Shown here one piece after another: positions 9,046-56,017 of a DNA stretch of 64,000 nucleotides; position 1 is the first letter of the stretch, and each line of letters begins with the position of its first letter. Both the position numbers and the translations under genes were made by a program. The notes below the pieces were generated by a model that was not told where the DNA came from, made no database searches, and worked only from the letters and a program-made list of their open reading frames with translations. The DNA is taken from positions 35,341-99,340 of the forward strand of contig MHWA01000004.1 in NCBI GenBank assembly GCA_001825335.1, read 5' to 3'. The DNA comes from Candidatus Zambryskibacteria bacterium RIFCSPLOWO2_01_FULL_35_19 (lineage in GTDB: Bacteria; Patescibacteriota; Minisyncoccia; Phycocordibacterales; WO2-35-19).

Positions 9046-9460
9046 GGGGATGATCGGCCTAGACAATAAGATACATTTGTAAAATGCGAGAGAGAGCTAC
9101 AGTACACTCTTAAAACTGCTATAAAAGATAACTGCAAACAAAGTTGTCGCAAAAGCAAAAACCGTTGTTTCTCCATATTTTGGAGTGGGTGATTTTGCTT
9201 TCGCTTACGTTAGGGCTTAATTTTAAGTCTCGCTAAGCGACGTCAGATTCTTTGATGTCTCATAAAAGAAATCTGGTGTAATAAATTTGAGACTTTGAAA
9301 AATAGTTGCTTCGCTATTTTTTCTAAATGTTGAAGCTCGATATTTTAAGATCTTGTTTGTTCCATACTTAAAATATTTAAACAAACTGCAACAAACTAAC
9401 TCTTGTAGAAATTTTCCAAATCTCTTATTGCATGGCGGTTCGATTCCGCCCATCTCCACA
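9046..9460 (+). ncRNA. ssrA: tmRNA (SsrA) candidate
   Basis: Immediately downstream of smpB. 5' GGGGATG pairs with 3' CATCTCC including a G3:U70 wobble (the alanine identity element); T-arm GGCGGTTCGATTCCGCC; ends ...CATCTCCACA. The tag-peptide frame is not resolved. Listed ORFs 8970..9176 and 9223..9459 overlap it and are treated as spurious. Confidence 0.6.
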
Positions 9461-9477
9461 AAAATAAGGAACGTAGT

Positions 9478-9555
9478 GACTATATTTTTGTAGGACTCCG
9501 CGAAGCTTTAGCGAAGCGGAGTAACACAAAATGTTATTAGACTATATTTTTGTAG
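9478..9555 (+). repeat. pair of 16-bp direct repeats (GACTATATTTTTGTAG) flanking a hairpin, just 3' of tmRNA
   Basis: Copies at 9478-9493 and 9540-9555; between them GACTCCGCGAAGC TTTA GCGAAGCGGAGT. Confidence 0.5.
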
Positions 9556-9655: not shown

Positions 9656-10630
9656 TTACAAAAACCCAATGATAGCCACTATAAATAAAAAGTATAAACC
9701 CAAAAGCATAAATGCTTCTTTTTTGCTTATAGTGCTATGAGTCCTTACAAATATCAAAAAGAATAGAGTGGCAGCTATCATAAACAAACGACTAATTAAA
9801 AGAAAGGAGGCGTTACTAATTACAACAGGGTGAATTAAAGCCACCACTCCCAACACTACAGTAGCTGGAATAACAATAGAGCCCAAAAGATTGCCGAGAA
9901 TCATAAAGGTCTCTCCCTTTCTAGCTGAAGCGATAGAAAAGTATACTTCCGGCAAAGCATTACCAAAGCCGACAATCAAAAGACCAACCAAACTAATGGA
10001 TATTTTAAAACTTGAAGCAAAAAAAGAAGCTGACCCCACAACGCCTTGAGTGGCGATAAACAATAAAATAATTCCGAGCAAAACTTTTCCAATATTTTTA
10101 AGAGATTCATTCAAAATTTTCTTCCAATTTTTAGGTTCCTCCTCCCTGTATTTTTTGGTAAACCGCTCTTTCTTGGAAAAAAGCCATCCTAAATAGATTA
10201 TAAAAAGAAACAACAAAATAAACCCGTCAGCTCTTGATAAAACACCATCTATCAAAAGAATGATAGGTAAAATAGCCACGCAAATAGTGAAAATCAAAGA
10301 ACTTTTTACAGTTTGGCTTTCTATTTGTATTTCTTTTTTTGGAGAAAAGAGGACAGCCACAGCCACCGCCAAAGTTAAAGCGGTAAAATTATTACCAAAG
10401 ACATCACCCAAAGATAGTTGGGGTATGCCCTCCATTGCTGAAGTAATACCAACAAAAAAATTAGGCAAAGAAGAGGCAAAAGCCATTACAAAAAAGGCAA
10501 CCACAAACTCTTTCAATCCTAAAAAGTGAGAAAGTTTTACCAAACTAGTAACAACAAGTTCACCTGAAATATATAAAATTCCACAAGAAGCTAAAAATAT
10601 AGCAATGTTTACAAACCAATCCATTATCAA
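9656..10630 (-). CDS. Ca2+/cation antiporter, CaCA family (YrbG-like)
   Basis: 324 aa, about 10 TM segments; two alpha-repeat motifs (AFASSLPNFFVG and GFGNALPEVYFS) characteristic of Na+/Ca2+ exchanger family proteins. Confidence 0.7.
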   Translation of the reverse strand: MIMDWFVNIAIFLASCGILYISGELVVTSLVKLSHFLGLKEFVVAFFVMAFASSLPNFFVGITSAMEGIPQLSLGDVFGNNFTALTLAVAVAVLFSPKKEIQIESQTVKSSLIFTICVAILPIILLIDGVLSRADGFILLFLFIIYLGWLFSKKERFTKKYREEEPKNWKKILNESLKNIGKVLLGIILLFIATQGVVGSASFFASSFKISISLVGLLIVGFGNALPEVYFSIASARKGETFMILGNLLGSIVIPATVVLGVVALIHPVVISNASFLLISRLFMIAATLFFLIFVRTHSTISKKEAFMLLGLYFLFIVAIIGFL

Positions 10631-10952
10631 TTATTATACACAATTTTAACAGCAACTAACTTTATTGATTAAATACAAACAAAAAATCCCCACAAAGCCA
10701 CAGACAAACGAAATCTAAATGATACGAACGAGAAAATAGTGTTTAGAGGAGAGATATTTGTACTTCTTTTCACTTGCGCAAATAGAAGCAATATTACTCA
10801 CACCGTTTCCTTGCTCGCCCGCCATAGCTTTTTAAGCGAAGGAGAGTCGATTAGATTCCATAGTCTGCAGCTCTGTGGGGATTTTTCAAAATTTTATCTG
10901 CACCACGCCAATTTCTTCACAAACCTGCCCCATTAGATATTTCATCTAATGA

Positions 10953-11134
10953 GGTCTTCCAAACACACGACAGTGTCAAGGTTCAACCTTGACACTCTGA
11001 TTCGCGAACTTGGAAAATGAGGTGATGATCGGGGTCACCTCGTATAAACAACCGAAAGAACAATTCCTCGCCGATCGCGAGGATAAAACCGTGGGAGCTT
11101 TTATTAGGTCTGGGTAAAAGCTCCACAAAAACCC
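10953..11134 (+). ncRNA. GC-rich structured repeat unit A (candidate ncRNA, one of three paralogous copies)
   Basis: GGTCTTCCAAACACACGACAG...GGGAGCTTTTATTAGGTCTGGGTAAAAGCTCC..AAAAACCC; four hairpins conserved with copies B and C. Confidence 0.45.
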
Positions 11135-11154
11135 TTAAATCGGGGATAATGGGG

Positions 11155-11373
11155 TCAAAGTGTTCGATTCTCAAACGCAGACTTAACCGCGTTCATAGCG
11201 TCCGCGAGAGAATCAAACACACCTTCAGCCCCCCACGCTCCAGAGAGACGGTATCTATTATCAAACGACCGCTGTGCTGTCGCCATGATACCTCCGTCTA
11301 AAATGCAACGGTAATGGGTGGTGCTTTCTACCACCCACAACAATATACCGTCGGACCAATGTTCCTTTTTCAT
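11155..11373 (-). CDS. hypothetical small protein (72 aa) with conserved GC-rich leader
   Basis: MKKEHWSDGILLWVVESTTHYRCILDGG...; strong SD-like AGGAG/GGGAG upstream; GC-rich codons in an AT-rich genome. Confidence 0.35.
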   Translation of the reverse strand: MKKEHWSDGILLWVVESTTHYRCILDGGIMATAQRSFDNRYRLSGAWGAEGVFDSLADAMNAVKSAFENRTL

Positions 11374-11504
11374 CTCAAATCTCCCTCTAACTCCTCACTT
11401 GGCACATGCCGGCGCATTGGTTTGCGTGATCCGGTCAGGGCTGTGAGAAGTTTGGCAAGGCCATTCGCTTCACCAGCGGGAACCTTGCAGAAACCTAAAC
11501 CGTC
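11374..11504 (-). promoter_or_regulatory. conserved GC-rich 5' leader element, copy 1 (candidate cis-regulatory RNA)
   Basis: About 95 nt are nearly identical to 12588-12690, just upstream of an unrelated ORF: ...CACAGCCCTGACCGGATCACGCAAACCAATGCGCCGGCATGTGCCAAGTGAGGAG... ending in the RBS. Confidence 0.4.
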
Positions 11505-11533
11505 CGTTTTTTCAAAATTTTTTCAAAACAGGC

Positions 11534-11736
11534 GGTCTTCCAAACACACGACAGTGTCAAGGTTCAACCTTGACACTCTGATTCGCGAACTTGGAAAATG
11601 AGGTGATGATCGGGGTCACCTCGTATAAACCAAATGAACAACCCTTCAATTTCTCTCAGGGCAAGCCTCGCCGATCGCGAGGATAAAACCGTGGGAGCTT
11701 TTATTAGGTCTGGGTAAAAGCTCTGGGGAAAAACCC
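11534..11736 (+). ncRNA. GC-rich structured repeat unit B (candidate ncRNA)
   Basis: Same architecture as unit A, with a 19-nt indel (not a multiple of 3) in the central region; directly followed by two intrinsic terminators. Confidence 0.5.
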
Positions 11737-11746
11737 ATGAAGCGAT

Positions 11747-11770
11747 AAGACTCTATTAGAGTCTTTTTTT
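11747..11770 (+). terminator. intrinsic terminator 1 after repeat unit B
   Basis: AAGACTCTA T TAGAGTCTT + TTTTTTT. Confidence 0.55.
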
Positions 11771-11938
11771 CAACTCCCCCAAAAACTGGGGGAGTGTTTT
11801 TTTGGTGGGCGGAAGAAGAAGATTATCCTTCCACCCGTAGCCATTGGCTCTAAATCCGAGCCAAATAGCTACCCCCATAGCCCCGAAGACGACCGCAAGG
11901 GTCGTCAATACAAAAAAAATGGACTCTACTATTCCCAT
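11756..11938 (-). CDS. hypothetical small membrane peptide (60 aa)
   Basis: MGIVESIFFVLTTLAVVFGAMGVAIWLGFRANGYGWKDNLLLPPTKKTLPQFLGELKKRL; a single TM helix; RBS GAAGGAG upstream. The listed ORF 11756..12142 is trimmed because its N-terminal part is a translation of repeat unit C. The peptide's 3' end overlaps the plus-strand terminators convergently. Confidence 0.3.
   Translation of the reverse strand: MGIVESIFFVLTTLAVVFGAMGVAIWLGFRANGYGWKDNLLLPPTKKTLPQFLGELKKRL
11774..11803 (+). terminator. intrinsic terminator 2 after repeat unit B
   Basis: CTCCCCCAAAAACTGGGGGAG + TGTTTTTTT. Confidence 0.55.
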
Positions 11939-12034
11939 TTTTATTTTTCTCCTTCTCTCTCCCCCGCTTTTCCCCGAGGGTGGGAAAATTCTAAACCAAA
12001 CGATTTCTAAAATTAAAAAAATCAGAAATCGCGT

Positions 12035-12235
12035 GGTCTTCCAAACACACGACAGTGTCAAAGACGGTCTTTGACATCCTGATTCACGAACTTGGAAAAT
12101 GAGGTGATGATCGGTATCACCTCGTATAAACTGAATGAACAACCCTTCAATTTCTCTCAGGGCAAGCCTCGCCGATCACGAGGATGAAACCATGGGAGCT
12201 TTTTAGGTCTGGGTAAAAGCTCCGGAAAAAAACCC
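12035..12235 (+). ncRNA. GC-rich structured repeat unit C (candidate ncRNA)
   Basis: A diverged copy; the hairpins are kept by compensatory changes (GTGTCAAGGTTCAACCTTGACAC becomes GTGTCAAAGACGGTCTTTGACAT; GGTGATGATCGGGGTCACC becomes GGTGATGATCGGTATCACC). Confidence 0.45.
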
Positions 12236-12242
12236 AGAAGAT

Positions 12243-12587
12243 CTAGCTCTTCGCTAACTTGCGGATACCAATGCGTCCACGCCCTTCTTCTGCATTTTCT
12301 AGGCCGTTGGAGCGCATTATTTCCGGCCATTGGGCCAGGCCGGACCTGAAAAGCTTACCGGTGTTGTTTCCGGTTATCCAGTACCCCGGGAAGGGCGTCT
12401 TCGCGTTTACTCTTTTTACCAATTCCTCGTATTTGAGGAATTCCCCTTCTTCCATCGACCGGGAAACAACCATCCCGATCCACATCTTAATCTGATTAAT
12501 ACTGAAAGCCGGCTCTATACCGGCCTCCTCTCTTTTTGGATTCCTGTTATATTTGTGTGTCACAGGGAACGGACTTACGTTCGTCAT
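12243..12587 (-). CDS. hypothetical protein (114 aa) with conserved GC-rich leader
   Basis: MTNVSPFPVTHKYNRNPKREEAGIEPAF...; protein-like composition; preceded by leader copy 2. Confidence 0.35.
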   Translation of the reverse strand: MTNVSPFPVTHKYNRNPKREEAGIEPAFSINQIKMWIGMVVSRSMEEGEFLKYEELVKRVNAKTPFPGYWITGNNTGKLFRSGLAQWPEIMRSNGLENAEEGRGRIGIRKLAKS

Positions 12588-12735
12588 TTCAAATCTCCTC
12601 CCAACTCCTCACTTGGCACATGCCGGCGCATTGGTTTGCGTGATCCGGTCAGGGCTGTGAGAAGTTTAGCAAGGTCATTCGCTTCGATTCGACCACTCTT
12701 GCAAGTGGAAGCAGCGGACCTTGCAGAAATTTAGG
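12588..12735 (-). promoter_or_regulatory. conserved GC-rich 5' leader element, copy 2
   Basis: Nearly identical to 11374-11475, plus a 31-nt insertion near its 5' end. Confidence 0.4.
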
Positions 12736-12932
12736 AATTGTCTTCCACCTCATCGGTGGATAAATTCACAACCCCTCTTGCCACACCAAATTTAGATTAC
12801 ATCCGCACTGCCTAAGCAGATTGGGACCATCATTTAGTTTGGCGAAGAGGAACTACGATAGTGTTCTGGCAAAACCAGAATTTTTCACATTTCATTCCCA
12901 ATCGCTATGATATTGTCAATGACCTTCAAAGA

Positions 12933-12973
12933 AAAAGACGACTAACTCTCCTAGAAGAATCAGTCGTCTTTTT
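12933..12973 (+). terminator. intrinsic terminator closing the GC-rich locus
   Basis: AAAGACGACT (18-nt loop) AGTCGTCTTT + TTT. Confidence 0.5.
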
Positions 12974-13206
12974 CCAAAGCTTTCTGCTTTGTAGAGCTTA
13001 CGCATAATTCATGATTTTTGATTCATGATTATGCTCCGCTCGTGACTCTCTCCTCTAAAAGATTGCCTTTCTTAACTGTCTAAAGTATAGCATAGTTCAC
13101 TTTTTTTGTCAAGGAAAATTTCTTTTTTCTTACCGAGATTGTCAAAATATGGCTTAAAATAAGGCGATTATCAAAATACTTTTCAGCATCTAACTACCCG
13201 TCAAAC

Positions 13207-13235
13207 CCGCCAATCGATTGGCAGGTTTGTTTTTA
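13207..13235. terminator. palindromic (bidirectional) terminator after the capA-like gene
   Basis: CCGCCAATCGATTGGCAGG followed by TTTGTTTTTAT. Confidence 0.45.
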
Positions 13236-14033
13236 TAAATCTACAAGGCAAGTTCTACCATCTCTGTTTAAAGAAACTTTGTGTTCAATGATATTAATTT
13301 CTCCCCTTTTAATCACCACTTCCAAAACCAAACCAGTAGAAACATTTTTGTTCCAATATTGGTCAAAGATAAAGTTGCCGAGAGAATAATAAATTATCGT
13401 CTCTCCTATTTTTTCAGAAGGGAGGATAACGTGCGGGTGTGAACCAATGACAAGGTCAGCTCCAGCTTGAGCAAACATTTTTGCATAATTTTTTACTCTC
13501 ACTGGAGGCAAGATATATTCATCACCCCAGTGAGTATAGACAAAGACCATTTGTCCTTTTGATTTTTCGTCATCTATTTTTTGAACCACTTTTGAAGCAG
13601 AGTCGCCATCAAACTCGTTATAAGATATGAAAGATACTTTTATCCCCGCTATTTTAGCCCTATAAACAGATTCATCTCCAGCCGCTCCTCCAAAATAATC
13701 CACTCCTGCCTCGTCTAAATATTTTTTAGTTGAAGATATACCTTCTTTGCCAAAATTATTTATATGATTGTTTCCTAAATTTACCATCTTTATATTGTTT
13801 TTGGCTAAAAGTTTGGCAACATTGGTAGGAAAAGTAAATACATAATTGTTATCACTACCGGATGTAGTAAACAAACTAACTGATGCATTTTCAGTAATTG
13901 GTCCTTCTAAATTACCTACTATTAAATCAGCTTCTTTTAAAAAACCAGAAATACAAGAAAATACATAATCTTCTCCATTCTCATACATCATCTTTCTTAT
14001 TTGCCTATCAAAAAAAATATCACCCACAAACAA
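13233..14033 (-). CDS. CapA/PGA-capsule family metallophosphoesterase
   Basis: 266 aa; motifs GNLEGP, NLGNNH, HWGDEY, GSHPHV. The start is uncertain: the listed start is TTG, and an upstream ATG (14114-14116) opens a signal/TM segment in another frame. Confidence 0.6.
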   Translation of the reverse strand: MFVGDIFFDRQIRKMMYENGEDYVFSCISGFLKEADLIVGNLEGPITENASVSLFTTSGSDNNYVFTFPTNVAKLLAKNNIKMVNLGNNHINNFGKEGISSTKKYLDEAGVDYFGGAAGDESVYRAKIAGIKVSFISYNEFDGDSASKVVQKIDDEKSKGQMVFVYTHWGDEYILPPVRVKNYAKMFAQAGADLVIGSHPHVILPSEKIGETIIYYSLGNFIFDQYWNKNVSTGLVLEVVIKRGEINIIEHKVSLNRDGRTCLVDL

Positions 14034-14501: not shown

Positions 14502-15121
14502 TTAATACTGGCTCTGTTTTGGGCGATAGGAGATGGCTTCAAGGATGTGGGAGGGAGTGATTTCAAAAGATGAATCTAGGTCAGCGATGGTGCGGGCCAA
14601 TTTTATTATCTTATGATAAGAGCGAGCAGAAAGATCTAGAGTTTTGGCTGATTTATTCAAAATTTCCTTAACCTCATCTGATATTTTTAAAATAAGAGTG
14701 ATATCTCTAGCGCTCATTTCGGAATTAGTAGCTATTTTTCTATTAGCATCTTTAAATCTTTTTTCTTGAATGTTTCTAGCTTTGACTATCCTATCTCTCA
14801 TCGGGATACTTTCGCTTCTTTCTGCTTTTTCGGTCAGTTTTTCATGGTCTACTTTTGAAACTTCTGTCCATATATCTATACGATCTATTATAGGTCCAGA
14901 AATTTTCCTTTTGTATCTTTCAATTTGCAAAGGCGCACAGGTGCAAGGTTTGCCTTTGATACCGTAGTTGCCACAAGGGCACGGATTCATAGCCGCTATT
15001 AATATAAAATGAGCTGGAAATTTAACGGTACCTTTAGCTCTAGATATAGAGACCACTTTTTCTTCCAATGGCTCTCTTAAAGATTCAATGGCTTTGTTTT
15101 CAAATTCAGGAAATTCATCAA
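14502..15121 (-). pseudogene. comM: 3' fragment (C-terminal half) of a comM/yifB-family gene split by the integrative element
   Basis: Encodes ...LDEFPEFENKAIESLREPLEEKVVSISRAKGTVKFPAHFILIAAMNPCPCG...ISYRPKQSQY, about 90% identical to the C-terminal half of the intact copy at 31416..32951. Homology stops at 15121; the listed ORF (14502..15167) gains a fortuitous Met from element DNA. Confidence 0.7.
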
Positions 15122-15432
15122 GGATGTTCGGTTTGCAAATGGACTTTTTTATGAAGCTGCGCAACACTTTTTTATTTTAAAGAGCCAACTCTTACTCCAC
15201 TTCTATAAGTTTAACAAGTTCTGCAAATTTTGCATAAGTTTTCTACGAACAAGAAATCTTCTACTCTTAAGGAAGCAGTTTTTATTCTGTCATTATGTAT
15301 GCTCGTGCGCGTGAATTAACGTTCAACGTTGCACAGCAGTCATAAAATCCTAACTGTAAACAAGCTGTTAAAACCTAAAAAAGCTTTATTTTAAGGTCTA
15401 TAATATGAATCTAGTGTAAAATAGCGTAAATA

Positions 15433-16938
15433 CTAGAACAAGGTAGACTGCTCTTTGTGTGGATTTGTGGATAACTTTTCTTCCTTTGCAGATAAATTTT
15501 TATGGGGTATATAACTATTGTTTGGATCATTTTTTGATGAAGATGACGACTGCAAAATTCCCCAAGAAATAAGCTCATTTAATTTTCTTAGTGCGTAGGG
15601 TTTAGATTTACCCAATATTTCCTGACATTTTGTTGAGTTTATTTCTTTTTCTTTCTCAACCACTTTTAAAATCTTTTTGTGTTCTGTGTCTAATTTAATA
15701 TTTTTTAAAATTGAATCTGGTATGATAATTTTTTCTCCCCCGTCAACTATAGATTTATCGCCCCCATTAAAGATGACCTGGAACCTGTCTGGAAATTCGC
15801 CAAATTCCGGCTCTTTAAGACCAGCTTCTCCGCAAAGATGTATCATTCTTTTTAATCCCGTTCCCCTTTTATCCATATATCCAAGTTGAACTAACAGGTC
15901 AGCAATAATAGGATTTCTAGTTTTTGGTATAAAATCTCCGGACAAAATAGTTTCTACAGTAAGAGGAGCTATCAGACCTCCAGGATTTTGGATCATAACT
16001 TTTTTACCATGAATCTTCAGCTGAATTTCTGATCCGCTATCACTATAATCTCTATGCGTGATCGCATTGATTACGGCTTCCCTGATTGCCTCAATAGGTA
16101 TATCCGGTATTTCTGTCCTTTCGAAACCTACAACTTTTGCCGAAACTTTTATATTTCTTCTAACAAAACTTTCAAAATCTTTTATTTGTTCGAATATATT
16201 TCCGCTAAATTCAGCTATATCATCCCAATCAGTTGAATCCGGATCAGATTTTGCTTCTGCTCTTATTCTTGAGTTCGGCAAAAAATCCTGAGGTGTTTTT
16301 CCAAATAACAACAATCCGGCTATCGTCGGCTTAGATTCTCCGTTGGTGTTTGTCAAAATTTTCATTCTGCAAAGAAGTTTTATCAAATCATCCCCTATTA
16401 TTTGAGAGCGCTCCCTCTTTTCCAGAGTTACTTTAATGAATTCCAAATCAAGATCTTCAATTGTAGAATTTGTGACTGGTCTATTATCGCACACCTGACT
16501 ATTTCTTCTATATAATTCGGCGATTTCTTCTTCGTTCGCTTCAACATTATTTGAACCTCTGCGTATATAAACTTTCCCGTTTGCCTTATAGGGCGGACTA
16601 TCTCCTCGTTCACAATGAACGATCACGATATGGTGTCCACCATCTTTGAAAAATTCAATCTTTGGAAATGGGTTTGGTTCCGGATTGCATCTGCCTCTTA
16701 TTTTATTAACCAGATTAGATTCTAACGTCTGGGGCAACATTTCACCAAGACCTACAACTTTTCTCTCGTGACCATCCTCTTGTACCCCAAAAATAATTTT
16801 TCCGCCTCTGGTATTATAAAAGGCAACTATAGTTTTTATATCTCTGTCTTTGTCTTCATTCATTCCTAAAGCTGCCCTGAATTCCAGATCATCGTTTTCA
16901 AAATCGTCTAGCAAACTATTAAATTCATCCAAATTCAT
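15433..16938 (-). CDS. COG2865-type ATP-dependent DNA-binding regulator (Schlafen AlbA_2-like N-domain, HATPase_c_4-like C-domain)
   Basis: 501 aa; IVAFYNTRGGKIIFGV...; C-terminal AITHRDYSDSGSEIQLKIHGKKVMIQNPGG. Confidence 0.5.
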   Translation of the reverse strand: MNLDEFNSLLDDFENDDLEFRAALGMNEDKDRDIKTIVAFYNTRGGKIIFGVQEDGHERKVVGLGEMLPQTLESNLVNKIRGRCNPEPNPFPKIEFFKDGGHHIVIVHCERGDSPPYKANGKVYIRRGSNNVEANEEEIAELYRRNSQVCDNRPVTNSTIEDLDLEFIKVTLEKRERSQIIGDDLIKLLCRMKILTNTNGESKPTIAGLLLFGKTPQDFLPNSRIRAEAKSDPDSTDWDDIAEFSGNIFEQIKDFESFVRRNIKVSAKVVGFERTEIPDIPIEAIREAVINAITHRDYSDSGSEIQLKIHGKKVMIQNPGGLIAPLTVETILSGDFIPKTRNPIIADLLVQLGYMDKRGTGLKRMIHLCGEAGLKEPEFGEFPDRFQVIFNGGDKSIVDGGEKIIIPDSILKNIKLDTEHKKILKVVEKEKEINSTKCQEILGKSKPYALRKLNELISWGILQSSSSSKNDPNNSYIPHKNLSAKEEKLSTNPHKEQSTLF

Positions 16939-16992
16939 TAATCAGAGAATACTACTTTTCAGATTCTATTACAATAATTTATGCCATCTGAA

Positions 16993-17295
16993 TCAACAGA
17001 GTTTATTATTTTCAAACATCCAGACGAATTCTTTCAGATTCTTACCCAAAATATAGTATCTAACGCCAGATTTTGTACCCATTCGTATTGGTTTTAGAAT
17101 ATGGCCATAGTAGTTTATGTATTTTATTGTAGTCTTGTAGCTCTTTCTCCAGTAAAAAATTTCTTTTTCGCATATCTGCCTTGCTGAATAGTATTCCGTA
17201 TCTACAGGATCAAACCTGTGCATTGGCTTGTAGGCCTCGCGCGTGCTCCCACGATCCTCGCTGGACTCATTATTTGTGTTTGTAATGGTATTCAT
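16993..17295 (-). CDS. hypothetical protein (100 aa)
   Basis: ORF immediately downstream of the recombinase; no recognisable motif. Confidence 0.3.
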   Translation of the reverse strand: MNTITNTNNESSEDRGSTREAYKPMHRFDPVDTEYYSARQICEKEIFYWRKSYKTTIKYINYYGHILKPIRMGTKSGVRYYILGKNLKEFVWMFENNKLC

Positions 17296-17300
17296 TATCT

Positions 17301-19061
17301 TTAAACTAAAGTTCTGGGGAAATACATTAGGGGGTTGGCTCGGAGTATTTCCGCCTGCCTTGCGGCTAAAGTCATCGTTTTGATGTTTAAGACAAGCGGG
17401 AAACCTTCTTTTTCTTCCGAAACTTTGGAACCAAGCTTAATTGTTGCCGTCTCGGTTGAACTCGGGAAGCGAAAAACAACCGAAGCGTAATCCTCTTTTG
17501 CATAAAGAGTGATCCTTTCAACAAAAAGTCTGACTATTTCCATTTTTTCTTCGTAAGATACATCGTCCAGTCTCACTTTTACTTTTTCGTAAGCTTTTCC
17601 GATAGCCACTTCCCTTTCTGCTTTCTCTTTTTTAGTGAGCAGAGATTGCCTCAATCTGTTCGCTTCGTCATTAAGCTTCTTTTCTTCGGCCCCATTTGAA
17701 TTACTATGCTCACTGTATTTTTCTTTGTCTATTTGACCGTTGATGTAGAGGTCGTCTACTCGGCTTTGTCTAATCTGAACAGACGATAGCTCTACAGCTA
17801 TTTGCTCGAGCCTCTCTTTGACATTCTCCGGGCTTTCTTCCCTATAGATGTATTTCTCCAAAGGGTCAAACATATTCTTTGGATTCTTAAGGATTTCTTT
17901 GAGACATTCCCAGATTGGTTCTAGTCTGGATTCGGCATAAACCGGACACCACTTACAACGCTTTGAAGTACCGATCGGTTTGTCATTGTGATAAGTACCA
18001 TGGTAGTACCTGCCTCCGGCCATAGGCCACTTTTTTGTTGGCGGTTGGTAGCCAGAAAACATTTTGTATCCACACACTCCGCAATATATGAGTTTTGCAT
18101 ACATGTAATCTCTCTTTTGATTTCGCCTTGCAAGTTCTCTGTTTTTTAGAAGTTGTGTTTTTGCCGCTTCAAACATTTCTCTGGTGATTATGGGTTGTGT
18201 CTCCATTGGTATCCAATCCTCTTTCGGTCTAAGCATTCTTTTATCGGTAATGCTTGTGAGATTATTGAATGGTCTTTTGTATTTTCTGTAGAAAAAATTT
18301 CCAGTGTAGGTTTCGTTGGTCAAAATGCGACCGATAGTTCGTTTGTGCCAGTAGTCTAAGGTCTTTCGTTTTTTATACTTAGCAACATACGGAGCTGAAA
18401 CTTTAAGTTGATTCATTCTCTTTTCAATTTCTCGTAAGGGAAGTTTTTCGTCGACTGCCCAATGAAAAAGTTTTTTGACGATTTTGGCTTGTTCCGGTTC
18501 AATAACGAGTCTCTTTGTGGTTTTATCTACTCGGTAGCCGTAAGTCGCAACACCAGTCACAAAGTTTCCTTGTTTAGCGGCCTGAAGTTTGCCACCCAGA
18601 GTTCTCTCGCGAATCATTCCCCTTTCAAACTGAGCAAACATGGCTAGTATTTGCATGACCATTTGTCCAACGGGAGTTGAAGTGTCAATCGGCTCTGTCA
18701 CGGATCGGAAAATAACTTTCAGCGCTTCAAAATGTTCAATGATTCCCAAGAACACTTTTAAGTTTCTGGCCAGACGGTCAATTTTATAAACTAAAACCAC
18801 ATCAAACTCTTTTTGCTCAGCGTCTTTAAGAAGCTGTGTCAGTCCAGTTCTTTTTTCGGGATGGGTGCTACCGGATATAGTGTCTTTGTAGATGTGAGAT
18901 TCTTCAAGTTCAAATCCTTGTGATTTACAGTAGTTTTGTCCTCTTTCAAGTTGTACTTCTGGACCAAAATGTTCTTCATCATCTTGGCCTGTTGTCGAAA
19001 CGCGAATATACAAAGCCGCTTTTAATTTTTTATCCTCTTCTTTTTTAGTTGTCTCTATCAT
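17301..19061 (-). CDS. large serine recombinase (resolvase N-domain, recombinase domain, zinc ribbon, coiled coil)
   Basis: 586 aa; catalytic region ALYIRVSTTGQ; DRLARN; zinc ribbon CGVCGYKM...CKWC; long C-terminal coiled coil. Confidence 0.9.
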   Translation of the reverse strand: MIETTKKEEDKKLKAALYIRVSTTGQDDEEHFGPEVQLERGQNYCKSQGFELEESHIYKDTISGSTHPEKRTGLTQLLKDAEQKEFDVVLVYKIDRLARNLKVFLGIIEHFEALKVIFRSVTEPIDTSTPVGQMVMQILAMFAQFERGMIRERTLGGKLQAAKQGNFVTGVATYGYRVDKTTKRLVIEPEQAKIVKKLFHWAVDEKLPLREIEKRMNQLKVSAPYVAKYKKRKTLDYWHKRTIGRILTNETYTGNFFYRKYKRPFNNLTSITDKRMLRPKEDWIPMETQPIITREMFEAAKTQLLKNRELARRNQKRDYMYAKLIYCGVCGYKMFSGYQPPTKKWPMAGGRYYHGTYHNDKPIGTSKRCKWCPVYAESRLEPIWECLKEILKNPKNMFDPLEKYIYREESPENVKERLEQIAVELSSVQIRQSRVDDLYINGQIDKEKYSEHSNSNGAEEKKLNDEANRLRQSLLTKKEKAEREVAIGKAYEKVKVRLDDVSYEEKMEIVRLFVERITLYAKEDYASVVFRFPSSTETATIKLGSKVSEEKEGFPLVLNIKTMTLAARQAEILRANPLMYFPRTLV

Positions 19062-19650
19062 GATTTTTTTGCTGACAAATTTTCAGTATCTTTTCTGGAG
19101 TTGCAAACTCAATTTCTTTTGATTTTATTTTTATTAACTGCCTTATGAGATCTTCTTTGTTTAGAGATTCAATCTCTTTGATTAAATCCGCTAGTAAATA
19201 ATCTCGTAAATCTTCAATACTATTCATAGTTTCAGGAAGCCCTTATTTGTTATTTCTAAAATATGCTTTTAAATAAAGGTTTCCTAAATACTATTGTTAT
19301 AGGTGTGTATATATAAGTACATATACTTACACATTTCTTTTGTTAACAACTGATGCGGGCATTGGTGCGCTTTACAGAATCTAAGGCCTTTTTGAGTCGA
19401 AAAGAAAAAGCCCACTATATTTTGAATTTTCTTTGATTACGACGCTTCAGAGAGTCTTTTTCCATCTCAGCAAATACCCCTAACATTAGCAGAATATCCC
19501 TTCCAAAAAGTTTCTCTCGTTCAGCAGTGTCACTGTTTCTATCATTTAACACACGTGGATACATTGCCACGTTTTTGATATTTTTTGATTTCATAAATTT
19601 AGATTTTTTAAGTTTGTAAATTTTCAAAGTTTAATTTCACTGATTTTCTC

Positions 19651-20403
19651 CTATGATTCTGAATTCTTACTCCATTCGTAAGGCCCCAAAGCCAAAAATT
19701 GGGCAACTCGCTCCTCACTGGAGAAAAACCAAGCGACAGTTTGAGTTTCAGCAATTCCCTTCCAGTACTCGTTTTCCCTCACATTTTTGAGAGCACAGAC
19801 AAGCTCCTCTGGCCAATACTCGTTAAATCTTGCTTTGATATTTTCTTTAGCTTCTCTGGTCAATCTTTGTCCAGAACGGATTATGTTTGAATAAAGTGTA
19901 TACATTTTTTCTATTTTCTTTTCTATTGCTTTACTATCTATTGTGCTTGCATTTTGTTCATTACTTAACGCTTGCACTTCGTTCAAGGGGGTGGAGCCAC
20001 TTTTTTCTCCACCCGCCTGAACTTGTTGCAAGACTAGAGTATATTCGCTTGTCCACCCCTTGCGTTTCCTAATCGTGATGAACCCCTTATCTTCTAACTT
20101 ATGAAGTGACGTAACGACTTGTCTGTAGCTGAGACCTGTTCCAGTCCCGATCTTGCCACCGCCATTTGCTATTTGTTCTATGCTCATTGTGTCCGAGTTT
20201 TTCTGGAAGCCCCAGGTTCTGCGTAAGATAAACAAAAGCACTCGTGTTTCAGAGCCATTAAGCAGGTGCATGTATGAATCCAGGAGACGAGGAAACATCC
20301 AGAAATTTTTCTTCATTTCTGGAGGAAAGCCAGGAAATTGTTTGGGGTTGTCTTGCATATTTATTAATCTTCGTCCTTCCCATCCTCTTCTTCTGCGAGC
20401 CAA
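19651..20403 (-). CDS. winged-helix DNA-binding protein, phage replisome-organiser/initiator-like
   Basis: 250 aa; RVLLFILRRTWGF...MSIEQIANGGGKIGTGTGLSYRQVVTSLHKLEDKGFITIRK, which resembles the N-terminal domain of phage replication initiation proteins. Confidence 0.4.
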   Translation of the reverse strand: MARRRRGWEGRRLINMQDNPKQFPGFPPEMKKNFWMFPRLLDSYMHLLNGSETRVLLFILRRTWGFQKNSDTMSIEQIANGGGKIGTGTGLSYRQVVTSLHKLEDKGFITIRKRKGWTSEYTLVLQQVQAGGEKSGSTPLNEVQALSNEQNASTIDSKAIEKKIEKMYTLYSNIIRSGQRLTREAKENIKARFNEYWPEELVCALKNVRENEYWKGIAETQTVAWFFSSEERVAQFLALGPYEWSKNSES

Positions 20404-20693
20404 TCTCCAATTGTCATTATCTCTTCGTAGGAGTATGTGAATTTTAGATCAATCTCTCTGCCCTGAATGCGAAATACAATATTTGGACTACCCATATTTG
20501 TTAGAGAATCGTCCAAAAAAGATGGATAGAACGAAATATCAAGCCTTATGGGTTCAGTCATATGTTTGTCGTTGGTGGTATCCCATAGAATTTTGTTAAC
20601 AGCTACTACTACTTTTTCAGCAATTTCTTTAAACGAACTTTTATTAAATTCTTGTGACATTTTTTTGCCACCTTTCTTATTTGTTGTTGACAT
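20364..20693 (-). CDS. hypothetical protein (109 aa)
   Basis: Acidic C-terminus; overlaps the next gene's start by 40 nt, consistent with an operon. Confidence 0.3.
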   Translation of the reverse strand: MSTTNKKGGKKMSQEFNKSSFKEIAEKVVVAVNKILWDTTNDKHMTEPIRLDISFYPSFLDDSLTNMGSPNIVFRIQGREIDLKFTYSYEEIMTIGDWLAEEEDGKDED

Positions 20694-20763
20694 AATTTTA
20701 AATAATTCTTAAGAAGGAGTGTGGGAGCGGACTGACTATTGACCACCCCCAGTTCCTTTACGA

Positions 20764-21195
20764 TTACACTTTTCTATCTCTTGGGGGAACAGGAATGTTT
20801 TGAACTGATTTGTATGTGTTCTTGGTTTTCTTTTTTATCTGCTTTTTTGTCAAATAGCTTGTGTCATCTCTCATTGCCCAATATTCGTCTGGGTCATTGA
20901 AGTACATACTCGGTGTTCCCGCCTCAAACGCACCACTGGAATATTCCAAAGTGTATTTTGGATCATACGCCTTGCCGAAGCTGATTTGTCTGTTAAGCAC
21001 AAGTGGAAGTTTTTTCTTGGAAGGCAACAGTCTTATCCTCAGGATGATATCCCTGGGTATAATCTTGTCTCCTCCACTGAAAAACCCTCTTTTCTCCAAT
21101 TCTGTCGTAATCAACCATTCGGCATCATCTAACAAGTACCAGAGATATTTTTGGTCTTCTGGAAACTCTTTAATTTTTTTAATTTTGTAATTCAT
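20764..21195 (-). CDS. hypothetical protein (143 aa)
   Basis: ORF with plausible composition; no motif. Confidence 0.3.
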   Translation of the reverse strand: MNYKIKKIKEFPEDQKYLWYLLDDAEWLITTELEKRGFFSGGDKIIPRDIILRIRLLPSKKKLPLVLNRQISFGKAYDPKYTLEYSSGAFEAGTPSMYFNDPDEYWAMRDDTSYLTKKQIKKKTKNTYKSVQNIPVPPRDRKV

Positions 21196-21274
21196 AGATT
21201 TTATGCGGTCGGAACGCGGAGCACTTCTACAAAGTACTCCGCTCCTGCCACCGCAATTTATTTACTAACTCAAA

Positions 21275-21589
21275 CTACTCCAGTGGAATCTGGAACTGCG
21301 CCGTCTTTGTATGCTTGCGATAGTATCTAGAGGCCAACTCCATGATAGGAGTCTTGCCTCTAAGGTCCAGTTTGATCTGAGCTTCTTTGAGCTTCGCTGG
21401 TATTTTGCCGAATGCTTTCACTAGACTTGTGGCTATCTGGTTTGCTCCGTCTTCCAGTATGGCCGGCACTATTCCGTAACCTCTGGGCGGCATTGAGTTT
21501 TTGAATTGATATTTCATAACAATTCTTGTTTCTTGTTGGATTATTTTGTTCGCTTTGGAGAAGTATGCTAAACAAACGAGTAAAAGCAC
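21275..21589 (-). CDS. hypothetical protein (possible frameshift with overlapping ORF 21360..21653)
   Basis: Two overlapping reverse-strand ORFs in different frames; the downstream frame has the more protein-like sequence. Confidence 0.25.
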   Translation of the reverse strand: MLLLVCLAYFSKANKIIQQETRIVMKYQFKNSMPPRGYGIVPAILEDGANQIATSLVKAFGKIPAKLKEAQIKLDLRGKTPIMELASRYYRKHTKTAQFQIPLE

Positions 21590-22092
21590 CCGACAAAGAG
21601 TTGCCGGAACCGACCTCTTGCTTTTTTTGTTTGTTGCTCATTTTGACGAACAAAAAATCCGCTTATAATTTGCGGATGCAAGTGGTCAGCATTACGAGAT
21701 TCTGAAGCTGATGCAAACGCATCCTGTCTGAATCCCGTTGGGGCTGAGTCCTTAGTTGTAAGTTTACACTACCATAACCTCTAATTTTTACTTTATGGAA
21801 CCTGTGGATAACGATAAAATACAACACGAAACTTTTAATCTGCAAGACACCCAGATTGCCCGTTAAAAATAAAGCCATATAAAACCATTACTTATACCCC
21901 AAAATTCAGCAGCCGTGAACGCGCAGCCCGACGAAATGATGCTAGCCACCTACTCCTAGTCAGTGCCCAGAAAGGATGTGGCAGAGCAAAGCAGTGCCCA
22001 TTTTCTTAACTTTTCACTTTGAAAGTTGTAAACGAGTGAGGTTCGCACGGAAGCCATAATAAATGAGATTGATTGTCTCTCGCATCTTTTAT

Positions 22093-22614
22093 CTACTCAA
22101 ATTTATCAACAATTTTGTCCAGTTTGTCTGACGCTTCCAGTATCATATTCATAGACTGGTCATAGAGTTTAGAGTCATGTTTGTCTATTGCTCTTCTGTA
22201 AATCGGCATGGAATCTCTAAATAATTCAAAAGCTTGTAAAACTTCTTGATGTATAAGAATCAAGTCTTCAGGCGGAACAATGGCTTTAACTCTTTCGTAA
22301 GATTTTTCTATGATTAGTGTGTGTTTTGCCAACTCCGTCACATCCTTATTTGTCCAGTATTGTTGATACGATTGTAAAAGATTTCGTGCCTCCATTGAAT
22401 TAGTCACATCTTCATAAACACCAATCACTTGGTTGAAGTAAACGGAGGTGCTGTATTTGTTTGCTACATATTTATTATCAGATGGTAGAGACGAAGAAGG
22501 ATTTGATCCACCAGAAAAAGCTACATAAGCCCACAACATTAGAAGCACAAAAAATAAAATAGTCAAAAATCTTTGTGTCTTCTTTGTTTTCACCTCACCA
22601 TTTGTAGAATCCAT
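22093..22614 (-). CDS. hypothetical membrane-anchored protein (173 aa)
   Basis: N-terminal TM LTILFFVLLMLWAYVAF, then a soluble domain. Confidence 0.35.
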   Translation of the reverse strand: MDSTNGEVKTKKTQRFLTILFFVLLMLWAYVAFSGGSNPSSSLPSDNKYVANKYSTSVYFNQVIGVYEDVTNSMEARNLLQSYQQYWTNKDVTELAKHTLIIEKSYERVKAIVPPEDLILIHQEVLQAFELFRDSMPIYRRAIDKHDSKLYDQSMNMILEASDKLDKIVDKFE

Positions 22615-22968
22615 AAAATTTGAATTAAAAAAAACCTGCTACTAATGCAGGCGGCAAGACTCCGACAAAAAGCCCGCCACCAGGAAGGTCCGAAGACCTC
22701 TATAAGAGTTTCCCCTTATAACGTTGAGAACGCCCTGAATGACGGGTTGTTTGTTCTCAACGATTTTCGACCATGCCAGAGTTTGAAGCTACTGGTTTAG
22801 GTCTTTCGGACTATTTAGTTGTATTTATATAGTAATACTTGCCTCTCGTTAAGTAAACAAGTAATTTGAAAAGGCCTTATTATAAATTTATACAAAAAGG
22901 TATAATGACCTTACAAATCCATAGCCTAAACCGTTTTAGCGGCATGGCAAAAACCAACCACGAAATCC

Positions 22969-23994
22969 TCATTGAGGCCTAATTTGCGGTTGGGCGGTCG
23001 ATGAGGATTTTATATTATTCGCTTTTCCTTTAGTCCATTTTTTCGGCACTCTCCGATTCAGTTTTTGCAAGAGTTTAATCTTCAGATTTCTGGATCGGCA
23101 ATGAGAAAGGATTCCGTTATAAGAAGAAAAATTCTTATCTGTCGCTTTCCTTAGTATTCTCTTTTTGGTTTTGGTTCTCAAAATTCTGTAGCTAGGAAAA
23201 CAAACATAGCCAAGGTAATCAATGCCGCTTGAATAAGTTTTCAAGACTATCTTATCTGGATGGATTCTTAATTTTAAATTTTGCTCAGTGAAGTTTTGAA
23301 TTTTGGAAAGGCACAATTCCAAAAAACTTTTGTCTGTGTGCATAAGGATAAAATCATCAGCATATCTGATATATCCCTTGACTTTCAGTTCATGTTTCAC
23401 AAATTGATCAAGTTTATCCATGTAAATATTGGCAAAAATTTGAGAAGTGAGGTTACCAAGCGGTATGCCGGAACCAAAACTTTCCGTTATATCTTCAAAA
23501 AGTTTGATCAGTCTGCAATCAAAAGTCTCTTTTCTTAATATTTTAAGAAGTATTTCGTGGTCAACGGAATCAAAAAATTTCCTGATATCCAGCTTCAATA
23601 CCCACAATGTCCTGCTGTTATTACGAGAAAGCTTAAGTCCCATTTTATAAAGACGCTTAATGGCCCAGTGAGTGCCTTTGTATTTTCTGGAAGACCAAGA
23701 GTCAAAGATAAACTTCTTATCCCACATCTGCTCTATAACTCTGATTATTGCATGATGCAAAAGCCTGTCCCTGACGCTTGCCTTGTGAATATGCCTCTTT
23801 TTTGGATCATTAATGAAAAAGGAAAAATAACCGCCATGTTTATATACCCCATTTACCAAATCTTCATGCAATTTAAAAATATTGTCTTCAAGGTTAAGCT
23901 CAAATTCGGCGACATCCTTCTTTCTCCTTTTGTCCCTGCGAAACTCGGTCCATGCGTCGAACAAATTTTTTAGTGAAATAATTTTTTCAAACAT
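22969..23994 (-). CDS. DGR reverse transcriptase
   Basis: 341 aa; the N-terminus matches the DGR RT pattern (ELNLEDNIFKLHEDLVNGVYKHGGYFSFFINDPKKRHIHKASVRDRLLHHAI); IPLGNLTSQIFANIYM; catalytic IRYADDFILMH. Confidence 0.85.
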   Translation of the reverse strand: MFEKIISLKNLFDAWTEFRRDKRRKKDVAEFELNLEDNIFKLHEDLVNGVYKHGGYFSFFINDPKKRHIHKASVRDRLLHHAIIRVIEQMWDKKFIFDSWSSRKYKGTHWAIKRLYKMGLKLSRNNSRTLWVLKLDIRKFFDSVDHEILLKILRKETFDCRLIKLFEDITESFGSGIPLGNLTSQIFANIYMDKLDQFVKHELKVKGYIRYADDFILMHTDKSFLELCLSKIQNFTEQNLKLRIHPDKIVLKTYSSGIDYLGYVCFPSYRILRTKTKKRILRKATDKNFSSYNGILSHCRSRNLKIKLLQKLNRRVPKKWTKGKANNIKSSSTAQPQIRPQ

Positions 23995-23995
23995 A

Positions 23996-24376
23996 ATGAA
24001 TACAAAAAATGATATTAAAACCGCCGAACAAACTCCTCTGTTCCAAGCAGTCTATAAGCTGTATCTATCATGGTATGTCAGATGCAGCCAAATTCCAAAG
24101 AAAGATAGATTCACTATAGGCCAAAAGACAGAAAATCTGCTTTTGGAAATTCTAATTTTGGTAGTTACCGCCTACCATACGAACAATCCGGAATATAAAA
24201 GGCAATCTCTATCTAAAGCAAATACTCTGCTTGAATGCGTCAAAGTCACTATCCGGTTGGCCAAAGATGTTAAAGCTTTGGAACAGCGCTGGTATATTGA
24301 TTACCAAACCAGAATCCAGGAAATGGGTAAAATGCTCGGCGGGTGGATCTCTAGTACATGCAAAACGAACGGATAA
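23996..24376 (+). CDS. avd: Avd-like accessory variability determinant (four-helix-bundle family)
   Basis: 127 aa from the internal ATG of ORF 23882..24376. YLSWYVRCSQIPKKDRFTIGQKTENLL...EMGKMLGGWISS parallels phage BPP-1 Avd as I recall it (YLYPIAQSIPRKHGV...EVGRILGSWIAR). It is oriented divergently from the RT; its stop overlaps a hairpin plus T-run. Confidence 0.6.
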   Translation: MNTKNDIKTAEQTPLFQAVYKLYLSWYVRCSQIPKKDRFTIGQKTENLLLEILILVVTAYHTNNPEYKRQSLSKANTLLECVKVTIRLAKDVKALEQRWYIDYQTRIQEMGKMLGGWISSTCKTNG

Positions 24377-24410
24377 ATGTCCGTCCGTTTTTTCTTTACG
24401 AGAGTGACTT

Positions 24411-25809: not shown

Positions 25810-25905
25810 ATTTTTGCTTATTTAAAGCCAGTATATCATAAAAATTTTCGCGGAAAAACCAAAGGAACAAAGGGAAAAGATCAAAGGTTCAATATGAGAA
25901 AAGAA

Positions 25906-28902: not shown

Positions 28903-28916
28903 ACAGCTTATTTATA

Positions 28917-56012: not shown

Positions 56013-56017
56013 ATAAA

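What the first reader, a model, noticed from the sequence alone, without database searches (positions are those of the whole stretch)
10640..12975. GC-rich 2.3-kb locus with three paralogous ~200-nt structured repeats showing compensatory covariation
Units at 10953-11134, 11534-11736 and 12035-12235 share a four-hairpin architecture:
- GTGTCAAGG TTCAA CCTTGACAC
- GAGGTGA..TCACCTC
- CCTCGC CGAT CGCGAGG
- GGAGCTTTTA...TAAAAGCTCC

Each unit ends with ..AAAAACCC. Copy C keeps every stem through paired substitutions, including a G-U pair that works only on the plus strand. Copies A and B differ by a 19-nt indel, which excludes a coding reading. Copy B is followed by two tandem plus-strand intrinsic terminators, and the whole locus is closed by another at 12933-12973.

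GC content is about 50%, against roughly 33% for the genome. No RNA family I can recall matches this (tmRNA, RNase P, SRP, 6S, group II domain V, hammerhead). The repeats are too long and too well spaced for a CRISPR array, and no Cas or integron integrase gene is nearby. A new structured ncRNA family in three tandem gene copies is my best reading. An unusual structured mobile repeat is the alternative.
Basis: seen in the sequence. Interest (0 to 1): 0.75.

Follow-up and report, generated by a model that had tools for sequence, protein, structure and literature searches.

The report
Hairpin-rich repeats bounding three small-gene cassettes
A groundwater Parcubacteria genome carries a foreign 2.2-kb insert in which three small genes are each followed by a copy of the same ~200-base hairpin-rich repeat; the repeat is real and matches no known RNA family, but it occurs in this one species only and nothing yet shows it is a new RNA gene family.

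Summary
The sequence observation holds. There are three ~190-212-nt direct repeats (10953-11137, 11534-11737, 12035-12236), each with four local hairpins. Copy A has a 19-nt indel, two plus-strand terminators follow copy B, and GC is 47.5% against 33-37% around it.

- Each unit lies 6-18 nt after the stop codon of a small minus-strand ORF of 114, 60 or 72 aa.
- A second ~100-nt repeat (94% identical) supplies the same leader and ribosome-binding site to two unrelated ORFs.
- A strongly minus-strand-specific 205-nt hairpin with a U-run closes the array.

ORF72 is a real gene: it has a 69% identical homologue in 56% GC contigs packed with small ORFs.

No Rfam family matches. No relative of the unit turned up in GTDB genomes, JGI metagenomes, IMG/VR, phages, plasmids or syntenic Zambryskibacteria loci. 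Compensatory change is confined to one palindromic hairpin and one lineage split, and folding does not favour either strand.

Contigs from other samples carry mosaic units and lost or reordered cassettes, so the repeats recombine.

Best reading (confidence 0.4): a horizontally acquired small-gene cassette array whose repeats are 3'-UTR or intercistronic structures and recombination homology. Three plus-strand ncRNA genes are not supported but not excluded.

The parts
10953..11137 (.). Unit A. It lacks the 19-nt linker hairpin and lies 17 nt after the ORF72 stop codon.
11534..11737 (.). Unit B. It lies 18 nt after the ORF60 stop codon and is followed on the plus strand by two terminators.
12035..12236 (.). 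Unit C, the divergent copy. It lies 6 nt after the ORF114 stop codon.
12243..12587 (-). ORF114. It is an orphan protein, preceded by leader D2b with a ribosome-binding site. The AlphaFold2 model is low-confidence.
11756..11938 (-). ORF60, a candidate small membrane protein with an N-terminal transmembrane helix and an AGGAG ribosome-binding site. Its 3' part overlaps the two plus-strand terminators. Coding status is unproven.
11155..11373 (-). ORF72, a real protein gene. It has a 69% identical homologue (P0003) in 56% GC contigs made of tightly packed small ORFs. AlphaFold2 pLDDT is 80.
11370..11477 (-). D2a, the conserved 5' leader with ribosome-binding site, ending exactly at the ORF72 start codon.
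12584..12698 (-). D2b, the same leader (94% identical) ending exactly at the start codon of the unrelated ORF114.
11747..11805 (+). Two tandem plus-strand intrinsic terminators after unit B. They lie inside the 3' part of ORF60.
12740..12747 (-). TGGAAGAC, the 8-nt terminal motif of the units. It recurs alone 16 nt upstream of the D2b leader region, at the position a fourth unit would occupy. Possible remnant or boundary site.
10668..10892 (-). I1, a ~205-nt near-perfect long hairpin followed by a U-run. It is strongly minus-strand specific and closes the array before the Na/Ca-exchanger promoter.
12931..12974 (.). A ~20-bp bidirectional terminator hairpin at the PGA_cap side of the array.
13084..13112 (-). 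A near-consensus sigma-70-type promoter (TTGACA-17-TATACT with TG) pointing into the array. It lies upstream of the bidirectional terminator.

Best explanation
The locus is a horizontally acquired array of three small-gene cassettes read on the minus strand. It sits in the variable region between PGA_cap and the tmRNA/SmpB genes of a Zambryskibacteria-like Parcubacterium.

Each cassette is [leader with ribosome-binding site] - [small ORF] - [~200-nt hairpin-rich unit]. Because no minus-strand terminator separates an ORF stop codon from its unit, the units are part of the mRNAs as 3'-UTR or intercistronic structures (inferred).

The most likely RNA-level role is to block 3'-exonucleases or define processing points so that each cistron has its own stability, as REP/BIME elements and phage intercistronic hairpins do (inferred).

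At the DNA level, the units and the shared D2 leader act as portable homology. Recombination and gene conversion between copies delete, reorder and hybridise cassettes in the natural population. This is shown by contigs from other samples, with the caveat that short-read assembly across repeats can produce chimeras.
For: - ORFs and units alternate in one orientation, with stop-to-unit gaps of 6, 18 and 17 nt.
- ORF72 is a genuine conserved gene on the minus strand.
- The identical D2 leader and ribosome-binding site abut the start codons of two unrelated ORFs.
- No minus-strand terminator lies between an ORF and its unit.
- I1, at the downstream end of the array, folds far better on the minus strand (z -9.4 against -5.2) and ends in a U-run.
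- The 19-nt deletion in the last unit (A) creates the only minus-strand terminator-like hairpin inside a unit.
- Array GC is 47.5% against 33-34% in the flanking genes.
- Syntenic relatives have different small genes at this position and no unit or D2.
- Population variants include loss of D2a-ORF72-unitA in two independent assemblies (L008, L066), ORF72 in first position (L060), ORF114 behind a unit B/D2 hybrid (L012), and mosaic units with crossovers at four or more positions.
Against: - Two strong plus-strand-only terminators directly follow unit B and lie inside ORF60. They imply plus-strand transcription through that unit.
- Helices H2 and H4 can be extended by G.U pairs only on the plus strand.
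- A -35/-10-like pair (TTGACA-18-GAAAAT) is conserved on the plus strand within all units.
- No promoter for the array was identified except one that lies upstream of a strong terminator.
- There are no expression data.
- ORF114 and ORF60 have no homologues, so their coding status is unproven.
- The mosaic contigs could partly be assembly chimeras.
Confidence: 0.4

Rival explanations
1. The units, or at least unit B, are plus-strand small RNA genes transcribed convergently to the ORFs. They would act as cis-antisense regulators of the opposing mRNAs, like type I toxin-antitoxin pairs with 3' overlap. ORF60 would be the membrane toxin, and unit B with its two terminators the antitoxin RNA.
For: - A double plus-strand terminator follows unit B and overlaps the last ~50 nt of ORF60.
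- ORF60 has the N-terminal transmembrane helix and charged tail typical of type I toxins.
- A -35/-10-like pair is conserved on the plus strand inside every unit.
- There are more G.U pairs on the plus strand in H2 and H4.
- The 3' halves of A and B fold slightly better on the plus strand.
Against: - Units A and C have no terminator, and they face non-hydrophobic ORFs.
- The -10 element is weak, and the -35 lies within a palindrome that reads the same on both strands.
- The 5' half of the unit folds better on the minus strand.
- No homologous RNA exists anywhere else.
- Covariation is minimal.
Confidence: 0.27
2. The units are DNA-level recombination sites of an integron-like cassette platform. 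They would be folded ssDNA sites recognised by an unidentified recombinase, and the lone TGGAAGAC at 12740-12747 would be the primary attI-like site.
For: - ORFan cassettes of 500-715 bp alternate with a structured repeat that starts right after each stop codon, all in one orientation.
- The 8-nt unit terminus recurs alone at the head of the array.
- Hairpins 1 and 3 are palindromic through their centres, which RNA folding does not require.
- The published DUF1874 motif shows the same arrangement, also without an integrase (PMC5737381).
Against: - No RYYYAAC...GTTRRRY core-site pair on either strand.
- Units are 187-212 nt with four separate hairpins rather than one imperfect hairpin.
- No integron integrase in 64 kb. 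The only recombinases are a large serine recombinase belonging to the comM island and a Xer-like gene 48 kb away.
- Crossovers in the variant units fall at several internal positions, as in homologous recombination.
- Cassettes were never seen at another locus.
Confidence: 0.08
3. The units are functionless passengers. They would be copies of an extragenic repeat family (REP/BIME- or MITE-like) from the unknown higher-GC donor, or the product of local duplication, kept similar only by gene conversion.
For: - The foreign GC and the absence of units in relatives point to import as a block.
- The mosaic pattern among copies shows ongoing gene conversion, which alone can keep copies similar.
- Perfect palindromes can arise by template switching rather than by selection (own knowledge).
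Against: - No donor genome with this repeat was found in 185,579 species representatives or in JGI metagenomes.
- There are no terminal inverted repeats or target-site duplications.
- The precise, repeated placement next to stop codons, and of D2 at start codons, is hard to get by chance.
Confidence: 0.2

Closest known systems
DUF1874 motif (Weinberg et al. 2017, NAR 45:10811, PMC5737381)
   Same: A multistem motif occurs in consecutive intergenic regions and alternates with ORFs. No integrase sits at the head of the run. Whether it acts as RNA or as a complex ssDNA attC-like site is unresolved.
   Different: There is no sequence or structure match: the Rfam scan at E<=10 did not list it. The published motif is described as usually lying in 5' UTRs. 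Here the unit abuts the 3' end of the preceding ORF, and a separate leader (D2) precedes two of the ORFs.
Integron gene cassettes with attC sites, including integrase-less CALIN arrays
   Same: Small, mostly orphan ORFs in one orientation are each followed directly by a structured repeat. Cassette size, foreign composition and variable cassette content between strains are also shared.
   Different: There are no R''/R' core sites. The unit is 187-212 nt with four hairpins rather than 57-141 nt with one. No IntI is present. Recombinant junctions are not at a fixed site.
PeSL regulatory cassettes of T4-type phages (Arbiol et al. 2010, PMC2839356)
   Same: Short conserved regulatory repeats flank small orphan genes and mediate their deletion, replacement and shuffling by recombination between copies. 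Here, repeats abut the start and stop codons, and population variants show such exchanges.
   Different: PeSLs are a strong promoter plus a terminator stem-loop. The units here are about 200 nt with four hairpins, have no clear promoter or terminator on the ORF strand, and sit in a bacterial chromosome rather than a phage.
REP/BIME-type extragenic repeats that stabilise upstream mRNA (own knowledge)
   Same: Hairpin-forming repeats lie just downstream of stop codons within or at the end of operons. The proposed function is the same, a barrier to 3' exonucleases.
   Different: REP/BIME elements are dispersed in hundreds of copies across a genome. Only three clustered copies are known here, and the rest of the genome could not be searched.
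Tandem type I toxin-antitoxin repeats such as E. coli LDR (ldr/rdl) or B. subtilis txpA/ratA (own knowledge)
   Same: Direct repeats of ~500-580 bp in tandem. One carries a small membrane ORF (ORF60) facing a convergent structured RNA with its own terminator that overlaps the ORF 3' end.
   Different: The ORFs in the three repeats are unrelated, and two are not hydrophobic. Only one unit has a terminator. Toxicity and the RNAs themselves are untested.

Membership tests
Any Rfam 15 RNA family | Covariance-model score at or above the family's gathering score | tested here: not met
   One search found only tmRNA, tRNA and two LOOT RNAs elsewhere in the window. One search (E<=10) gave its best hits on the terminators. 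RT-19 scored 15-16 bits against a gathering score of 78 on units B and C. DUF1874 was not listed.
   No homologue outside this species. Of 61 pairs, 49 are invariant. Both-side changes occur in one hairpin only, from one lineage split.
   Only copy B has terminators. An internal -35/-10-like pair is conserved, but the -10 is weak. No consistent upstream promoter was seen.
Integron attC site | R'' (RYYYAAC) and R' (GTTRRRY) core sites at the two ends | tested here: not met
   A regex scan of 10600-13250 on both strands found no pair at 40-200 nt spacing.
Integron attC site | One imperfect hairpin of about 57-141 nt | tested here: not met
   Units are 187-212 nt and fold into four separate hairpins plus a closing helix.
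Integron attC site | Integron integrase (IntI) adjacent to the array | tested here: not met
   Pfam scans of most ORFs of at least 120 aa in the 64-kb window found only a large serine recombinase (17301-19061) and a Xer-like tyrosine recombinase at 60662-61615. A few ORFs (20 of 64, chiefly antisense overlaps, plus three at 54959-56491) were not scanned.
Integron attC site | Repeat alternates with promoterless ORFs in a single orientation | tested here: met
CRISPR array | Repeats of about 23-55 nt with similar-sized non-coding spacers, plus cas genes | tested here: not met
   Repeats are ~200 nt, 'spacers' are 290-500 nt and contain ORFs, and no cas genes were found.
PeSL-type regulatory cassette | Recombination between copies deletes or swaps the genes they flank | tested here: met
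   Variant arrays and mosaic units occur in contigs from other samples. Assembly chimeras cannot be fully excluded.
PeSL-type regulatory cassette | Composite of a strong promoter and a terminator stem-loop on the gene strand | tested here: not met
   No promoter-like site and no terminator on the minus strand within units, except the terminator-like hairpin of unit A.
Type I toxin-antitoxin module | Small hydrophobic toxin ORF with a convergent or overlapping antisense RNA | tested here: inconclusive
   ORF60 together with unit B and its terminators fits on sequence signals. ORF72 and ORF114 do not fit. Toxicity and transcripts are not testable here.

The most novel reading that the evidence does not exclude
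The units are complex, multi-hairpin recombination sites of a cassette-capture platform that works without an integron integrase. This would be a CPR counterpart of the unexplained DUF1874-type arrays, with TGGAAGAC as the crossover core and a recombinase encoded elsewhere.
Probability: 0.07. Interest if true: 0.8.

Novelty: new variant of a known kind. Interest (0 to 1): 0.35.

Why it matters
If the units prove functional, this would be a second, unrelated example of a multistem element alternating with orphan genes and no integrase. The first is the DUF1874 motif. It would occur in a candidate-phyla-radiation bacterium, a group whose gene-acquisition mechanisms are almost unknown. It would then bear on how small foreign genes are captured, expressed and shuffled in reduced genomes.

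As the evidence stands, it is a single-species curiosity. It shows that conserved leader and trailer repeats can frame unrelated ORFs exactly at their start and stop codons, and that those repeats recombine in nature.

Tried and rejected
- **Rfam:** gathering and permissive scans found no family. The RT-19 hits (15-16 bits against 78) and the DUF2693, Phe_leader and miRNA hits are noise.
- **Exact-block scans for unit relatives:**
  - GTDB species genomes, 20-mer: 4 chance hits.
  - JGI metagenomes, 18-mer: 30 chance hits.
  - IMG/VR, six blocks including the D2 leader: only chance hits.
- **blastn of the whole locus** against phage and plasmid collections found nothing relevant.
- **nhmmer with unit and D2 profiles** on the window and on syntenic loci of relatives found no further copies.
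- **ORF114:** an orphan in 5.8 billion and in 1.8 billion representative proteins. Its structure model was too poor to use.
- **ORF72:** fold searches gave only non-significant resemblance to small phage proteins. No viral relatives were found. Pfam, PHROGs and PADLOC were empty.
- **Island integration at the tmRNA gene:** no direct repeat of the tmRNA 3' end was found.
- **Strand assignment by folding energy:** raw minus-strand advantages are a base-composition effect seen even in coding DNA. Z-scores for the units are equal on both strands.
- **L006 'insertion' in D2a:** it is a scaffold gap of Ns.
- **Other readings rejected:** a DGR template/variable-repeat reading, because the differences are not adenine-specific and the reverse transcriptase belongs to another island; a MITE reading, because there are no terminal inverted repeats or target duplications; and a coding reading of the units, because of the 19-nt indel and non-conserved frames.
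Full report
**Source and setting**

The window is contig LBPL01000003.1 of Parcubacteria group bacterium GW2011_GWC1_34_10, a candidate-phyla-radiation organism from groundwater, read in reverse orientation. The nearest relatives of its PGA_cap protein are about 70% identical and come from Candidatus Zambryskibacteria.

The finding lies between a Na/Ca-exchanger gene (9656-10630, minus strand) and a PGA_cap gene (13233-14033, minus strand). It is 1.2 kb from the tmRNA gene (9046-9461) and SmpB.

In relatives the order comM - PGA_cap - [variable small genes] - SmpB - FtsH - RecG is conserved. The segment between PGA_cap and SmpB differs in every lineage. None of these syntenic loci contains the unit or the second repeat.

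**The observation**

Three direct repeats are present at 10944-11137, 11525-11737 and 12026-12236.

Copies A and B are identical over the 5' ~100 nt and over the H3-H4 hairpins. They differ in a linker with a 19-nt indel and in the 3' tail. Copy C differs from B at about 11% of positions.

The units fold far better than shuffled controls: z about -5 to -6 for A and B, and -2.4 to -2.8 for C. Two plus-strand terminator-like hairpins with T-runs follow B.

The 12931-12974 hairpin is a bidirectional terminator. Array GC is 47.5%, against 33-34% for the neighbouring genes. No Rfam family matches.

On the minus strand the locus is an ordered array.
- First comes a ~100-150-nt leader, D2b, that ends in a ribosome-binding site. 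It is followed by ORF114 (12587-12243) and then unit C, 6 nt after the stop codon.
- Next comes ORF60 (11938-11756) with an AGGAG ribosome-binding site, then unit B, 18 nt after the stop.
- Then comes leader D2a, 94% identical to D2b up to the base before the ATG. It is followed by ORF72 (11373-11155) and then unit A, 17 nt after the stop.
- Last is I1 (10668-10892), a 205-nt near-perfect hairpin.

I1 folds at -88.9 kcal/mol (z -9.4) on the minus strand, against -59.8 (z -5.2) on the plus strand. It ends in a U-run just before the exchanger's promoter.

The 8-nt terminus of the units, TGGAAGAC on the minus strand, also occurs alone at 12740-12747. That is 16 nt upstream of the D2b leader region, where a fourth unit would end.

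**Are the ORFs genes?**

ORF72 is. A 69% identical protein, P0003, is encoded in 56% GC contigs made of tightly packed 69-99-aa ORFs, a layout typical of phage or other mobile-element regions. Neither the unit nor D2 is present there.

The ORF72 AlphaFold2 model is confident (pLDDT 80). It resembles only small uncharacterised phage proteins, and not significantly.

ORF114 is an orphan in both protein databases. It shares ORF72's leader and ribosome-binding site.

ORF60 has one clear transmembrane helix and a charged tail, but no homologues. The two plus-strand terminators lie inside its 3' part.

**Covariation and strand**

I counted pairs on the three copies against the minimum-free-energy structure of B.
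- 49 of 61 pairs never vary.
- 4 pairs change on both sides: two in hairpin 1, one involving a non-conserved flanking base, and one in the poorly aligned tail.

Hairpin 1 is a perfect 23-nt palindrome in both versions (GTGTCAAGGTT-C-AACCTTGACAC and TGTCAAAGAC-G-GTCTTTGACA). It is complementary even at the innermost pair, which cannot form in a folded strand. Hairpin 3 is palindromic through its centre (CGATCG).

That pattern fits a DNA-level origin as well as it fits RNA selection, for example template switching or a dyad-symmetric site (own knowledge).

In copy C, hairpin 3 loses a pair on the plus strand and would keep it as G.U on the minus strand. Hairpin 1 in C and hairpin 4 in B keep a G.U only on the plus strand. 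H2 and H4 can be extended by invariant U.G pairs on the plus strand.

Z-scores for whole units are equal on both strands. The 5' half favours the minus strand and the 3' half of A and B slightly favours the plus strand. Raw energy differences along the locus mostly reflect base composition.

The claim of compensatory covariation is therefore only weakly supported, and the strand is undecided on structural grounds.

**Distribution**

No relative of the unit was found anywhere:
- a 20-mer in 185,579 species genomes;
- an 18-mer in JGI metagenomes;
- six blocks in IMG/VR;
- blastn against phages and plasmids;
- profile searches of the window and of syntenic loci.

These scans need exact short matches, so diverged relatives could be missed. 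The rest of this genome could not be searched.

**Population variation**

Contigs of the same species from other samples show several alternative arrays.
- The full array is present in all long contigs.
- The D2a-ORF72-unit A cassette is lost in two independent assemblies (L008, L066).
- ORF72 sits directly behind the upstream intergenic region in L060.
- ORF114 sits behind a unit B/D2 hybrid and is followed by a hybrid unit in L012.

Nine distinct full-length unit sequences exist. They are mosaics of the A/B and C types, with exchange points at four or more different positions.

This is what homologous recombination and gene conversion between repeats produce. It does not look like cutting at one fixed site. 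Some mosaics in short contigs could be assembly chimeras. The apparent insertion in L006 is a run of Ns.

**Interpretation**

The best-supported picture is a horizontally acquired cassette array expressed from the minus strand.

The units are necessarily part of the minus-strand transcripts, because nothing terminates between the stop codons and the units. The array ends in a minus-strand-specific hairpin and U-run.

I therefore read the units as 3'-UTR or intercistronic structures that most likely stabilise or delimit each cistron. Together with D2, they also provide the homology that reshuffles the cassettes.
- Shown: the architecture, the foreign origin, the reality of ORF72, the absence from relatives, and the recombinant variants.
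- Inferred: transcription itself and any RNA-level function.

The main rival is plus-strand small RNAs acting as convergent antisense regulators. The double terminator after unit B and the toxin-like shape of ORF60 make this credible for the middle cassette, but units A and C lack terminators.

An integron-like site-specific system is the most novel reading. It fails every attC membership test except the arrangement itself.

The closest published parallel is the DUF1874 motif, a multistem element alternating with ORFs without an integrase, whose nature is also unresolved (PMC5737381). PeSL cassettes of T4-type phages are the closest parallel for repeat-mediated shuffling of orphan genes (PMC2839356).

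**Verdict**

This is a real, unusual repeat that is not a known family. However, it is confined to one species, lacks comparative support, and has no assigned strand. It is best described as a new variant of repeat-framed gene cassettes, not as a demonstrated new ncRNA class. I rate interest at 0.35.

Noticed in passing
window 10668-10892 (minus strand): I1 is a ~205-nt near-perfect long hairpin with a trailing U-run. It is far more stable on the minus strand (-88.9 kcal/mol, z -9.4) than on the plus strand (-59.8, z -5.2). It has no Rfam match and lies between unit A and the Na/Ca-exchanger promoter.
   Followed up: partly
window 12925-13112 (minus strand): A near-consensus promoter (TTGACA-17-TATACT with TG, 13112-13084) is followed by ~100 nt with a long near-perfect hairpin and two tiny ORFs. 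Then comes a 20-bp terminator (12975-12931). This is a candidate ~150-nt small RNA or attenuator directly upstream of the cassette array.
   Followed up: partly
window 14502-33836: comM is split into a C-terminal fragment (14502-15167) and an N-terminal fragment (33081-33836) by an ~18-kb island that carries its own full-length comM (31416-32951). The island also carries a large serine recombinase (17301-19061), a Schlafen/AlbA_2 ATPase, a Rep_O-like gene, and an AAA_5 plus VWA gene pair. Relatives, and one strain of the same species (L060), have comM unsplit (444 aa in L060, 512 aa in the relatives).
   Followed up: partly
window 22685-22803 (minus strand) and 31260-31383 (plus strand): There are two LOOT RNA matches (73 and 77 bits; gathering score 46). 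One lies just downstream of a 341-aa reverse transcriptase gene (22969-23994). The other is at the edge of the island, next to the island's comM copy.
   Followed up: no
window 11370-11477 and 12584-12698: The same ~100-nt leader with a ribosome-binding site (94% identical) ends exactly at the start codons of two unrelated ORFs. The ORF72 homologue in other contigs has no such leader, so the leader is a module of this locus rather than of the genes.
   Followed up: yes
window 9478-9493 and 9540-9555: A perfect 16-nt direct repeat, GACTATATTTTTGTAG, occurs twice 62 nt apart, just downstream of the tmRNA gene.
   Followed up: no
window 60662-61615: A Xer-like tyrosine recombinase (Phage_integrase plus SAM_1 domains) is the only tyrosine recombinase found in the window. 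It lies 48 kb from the array.
   Followed up: no
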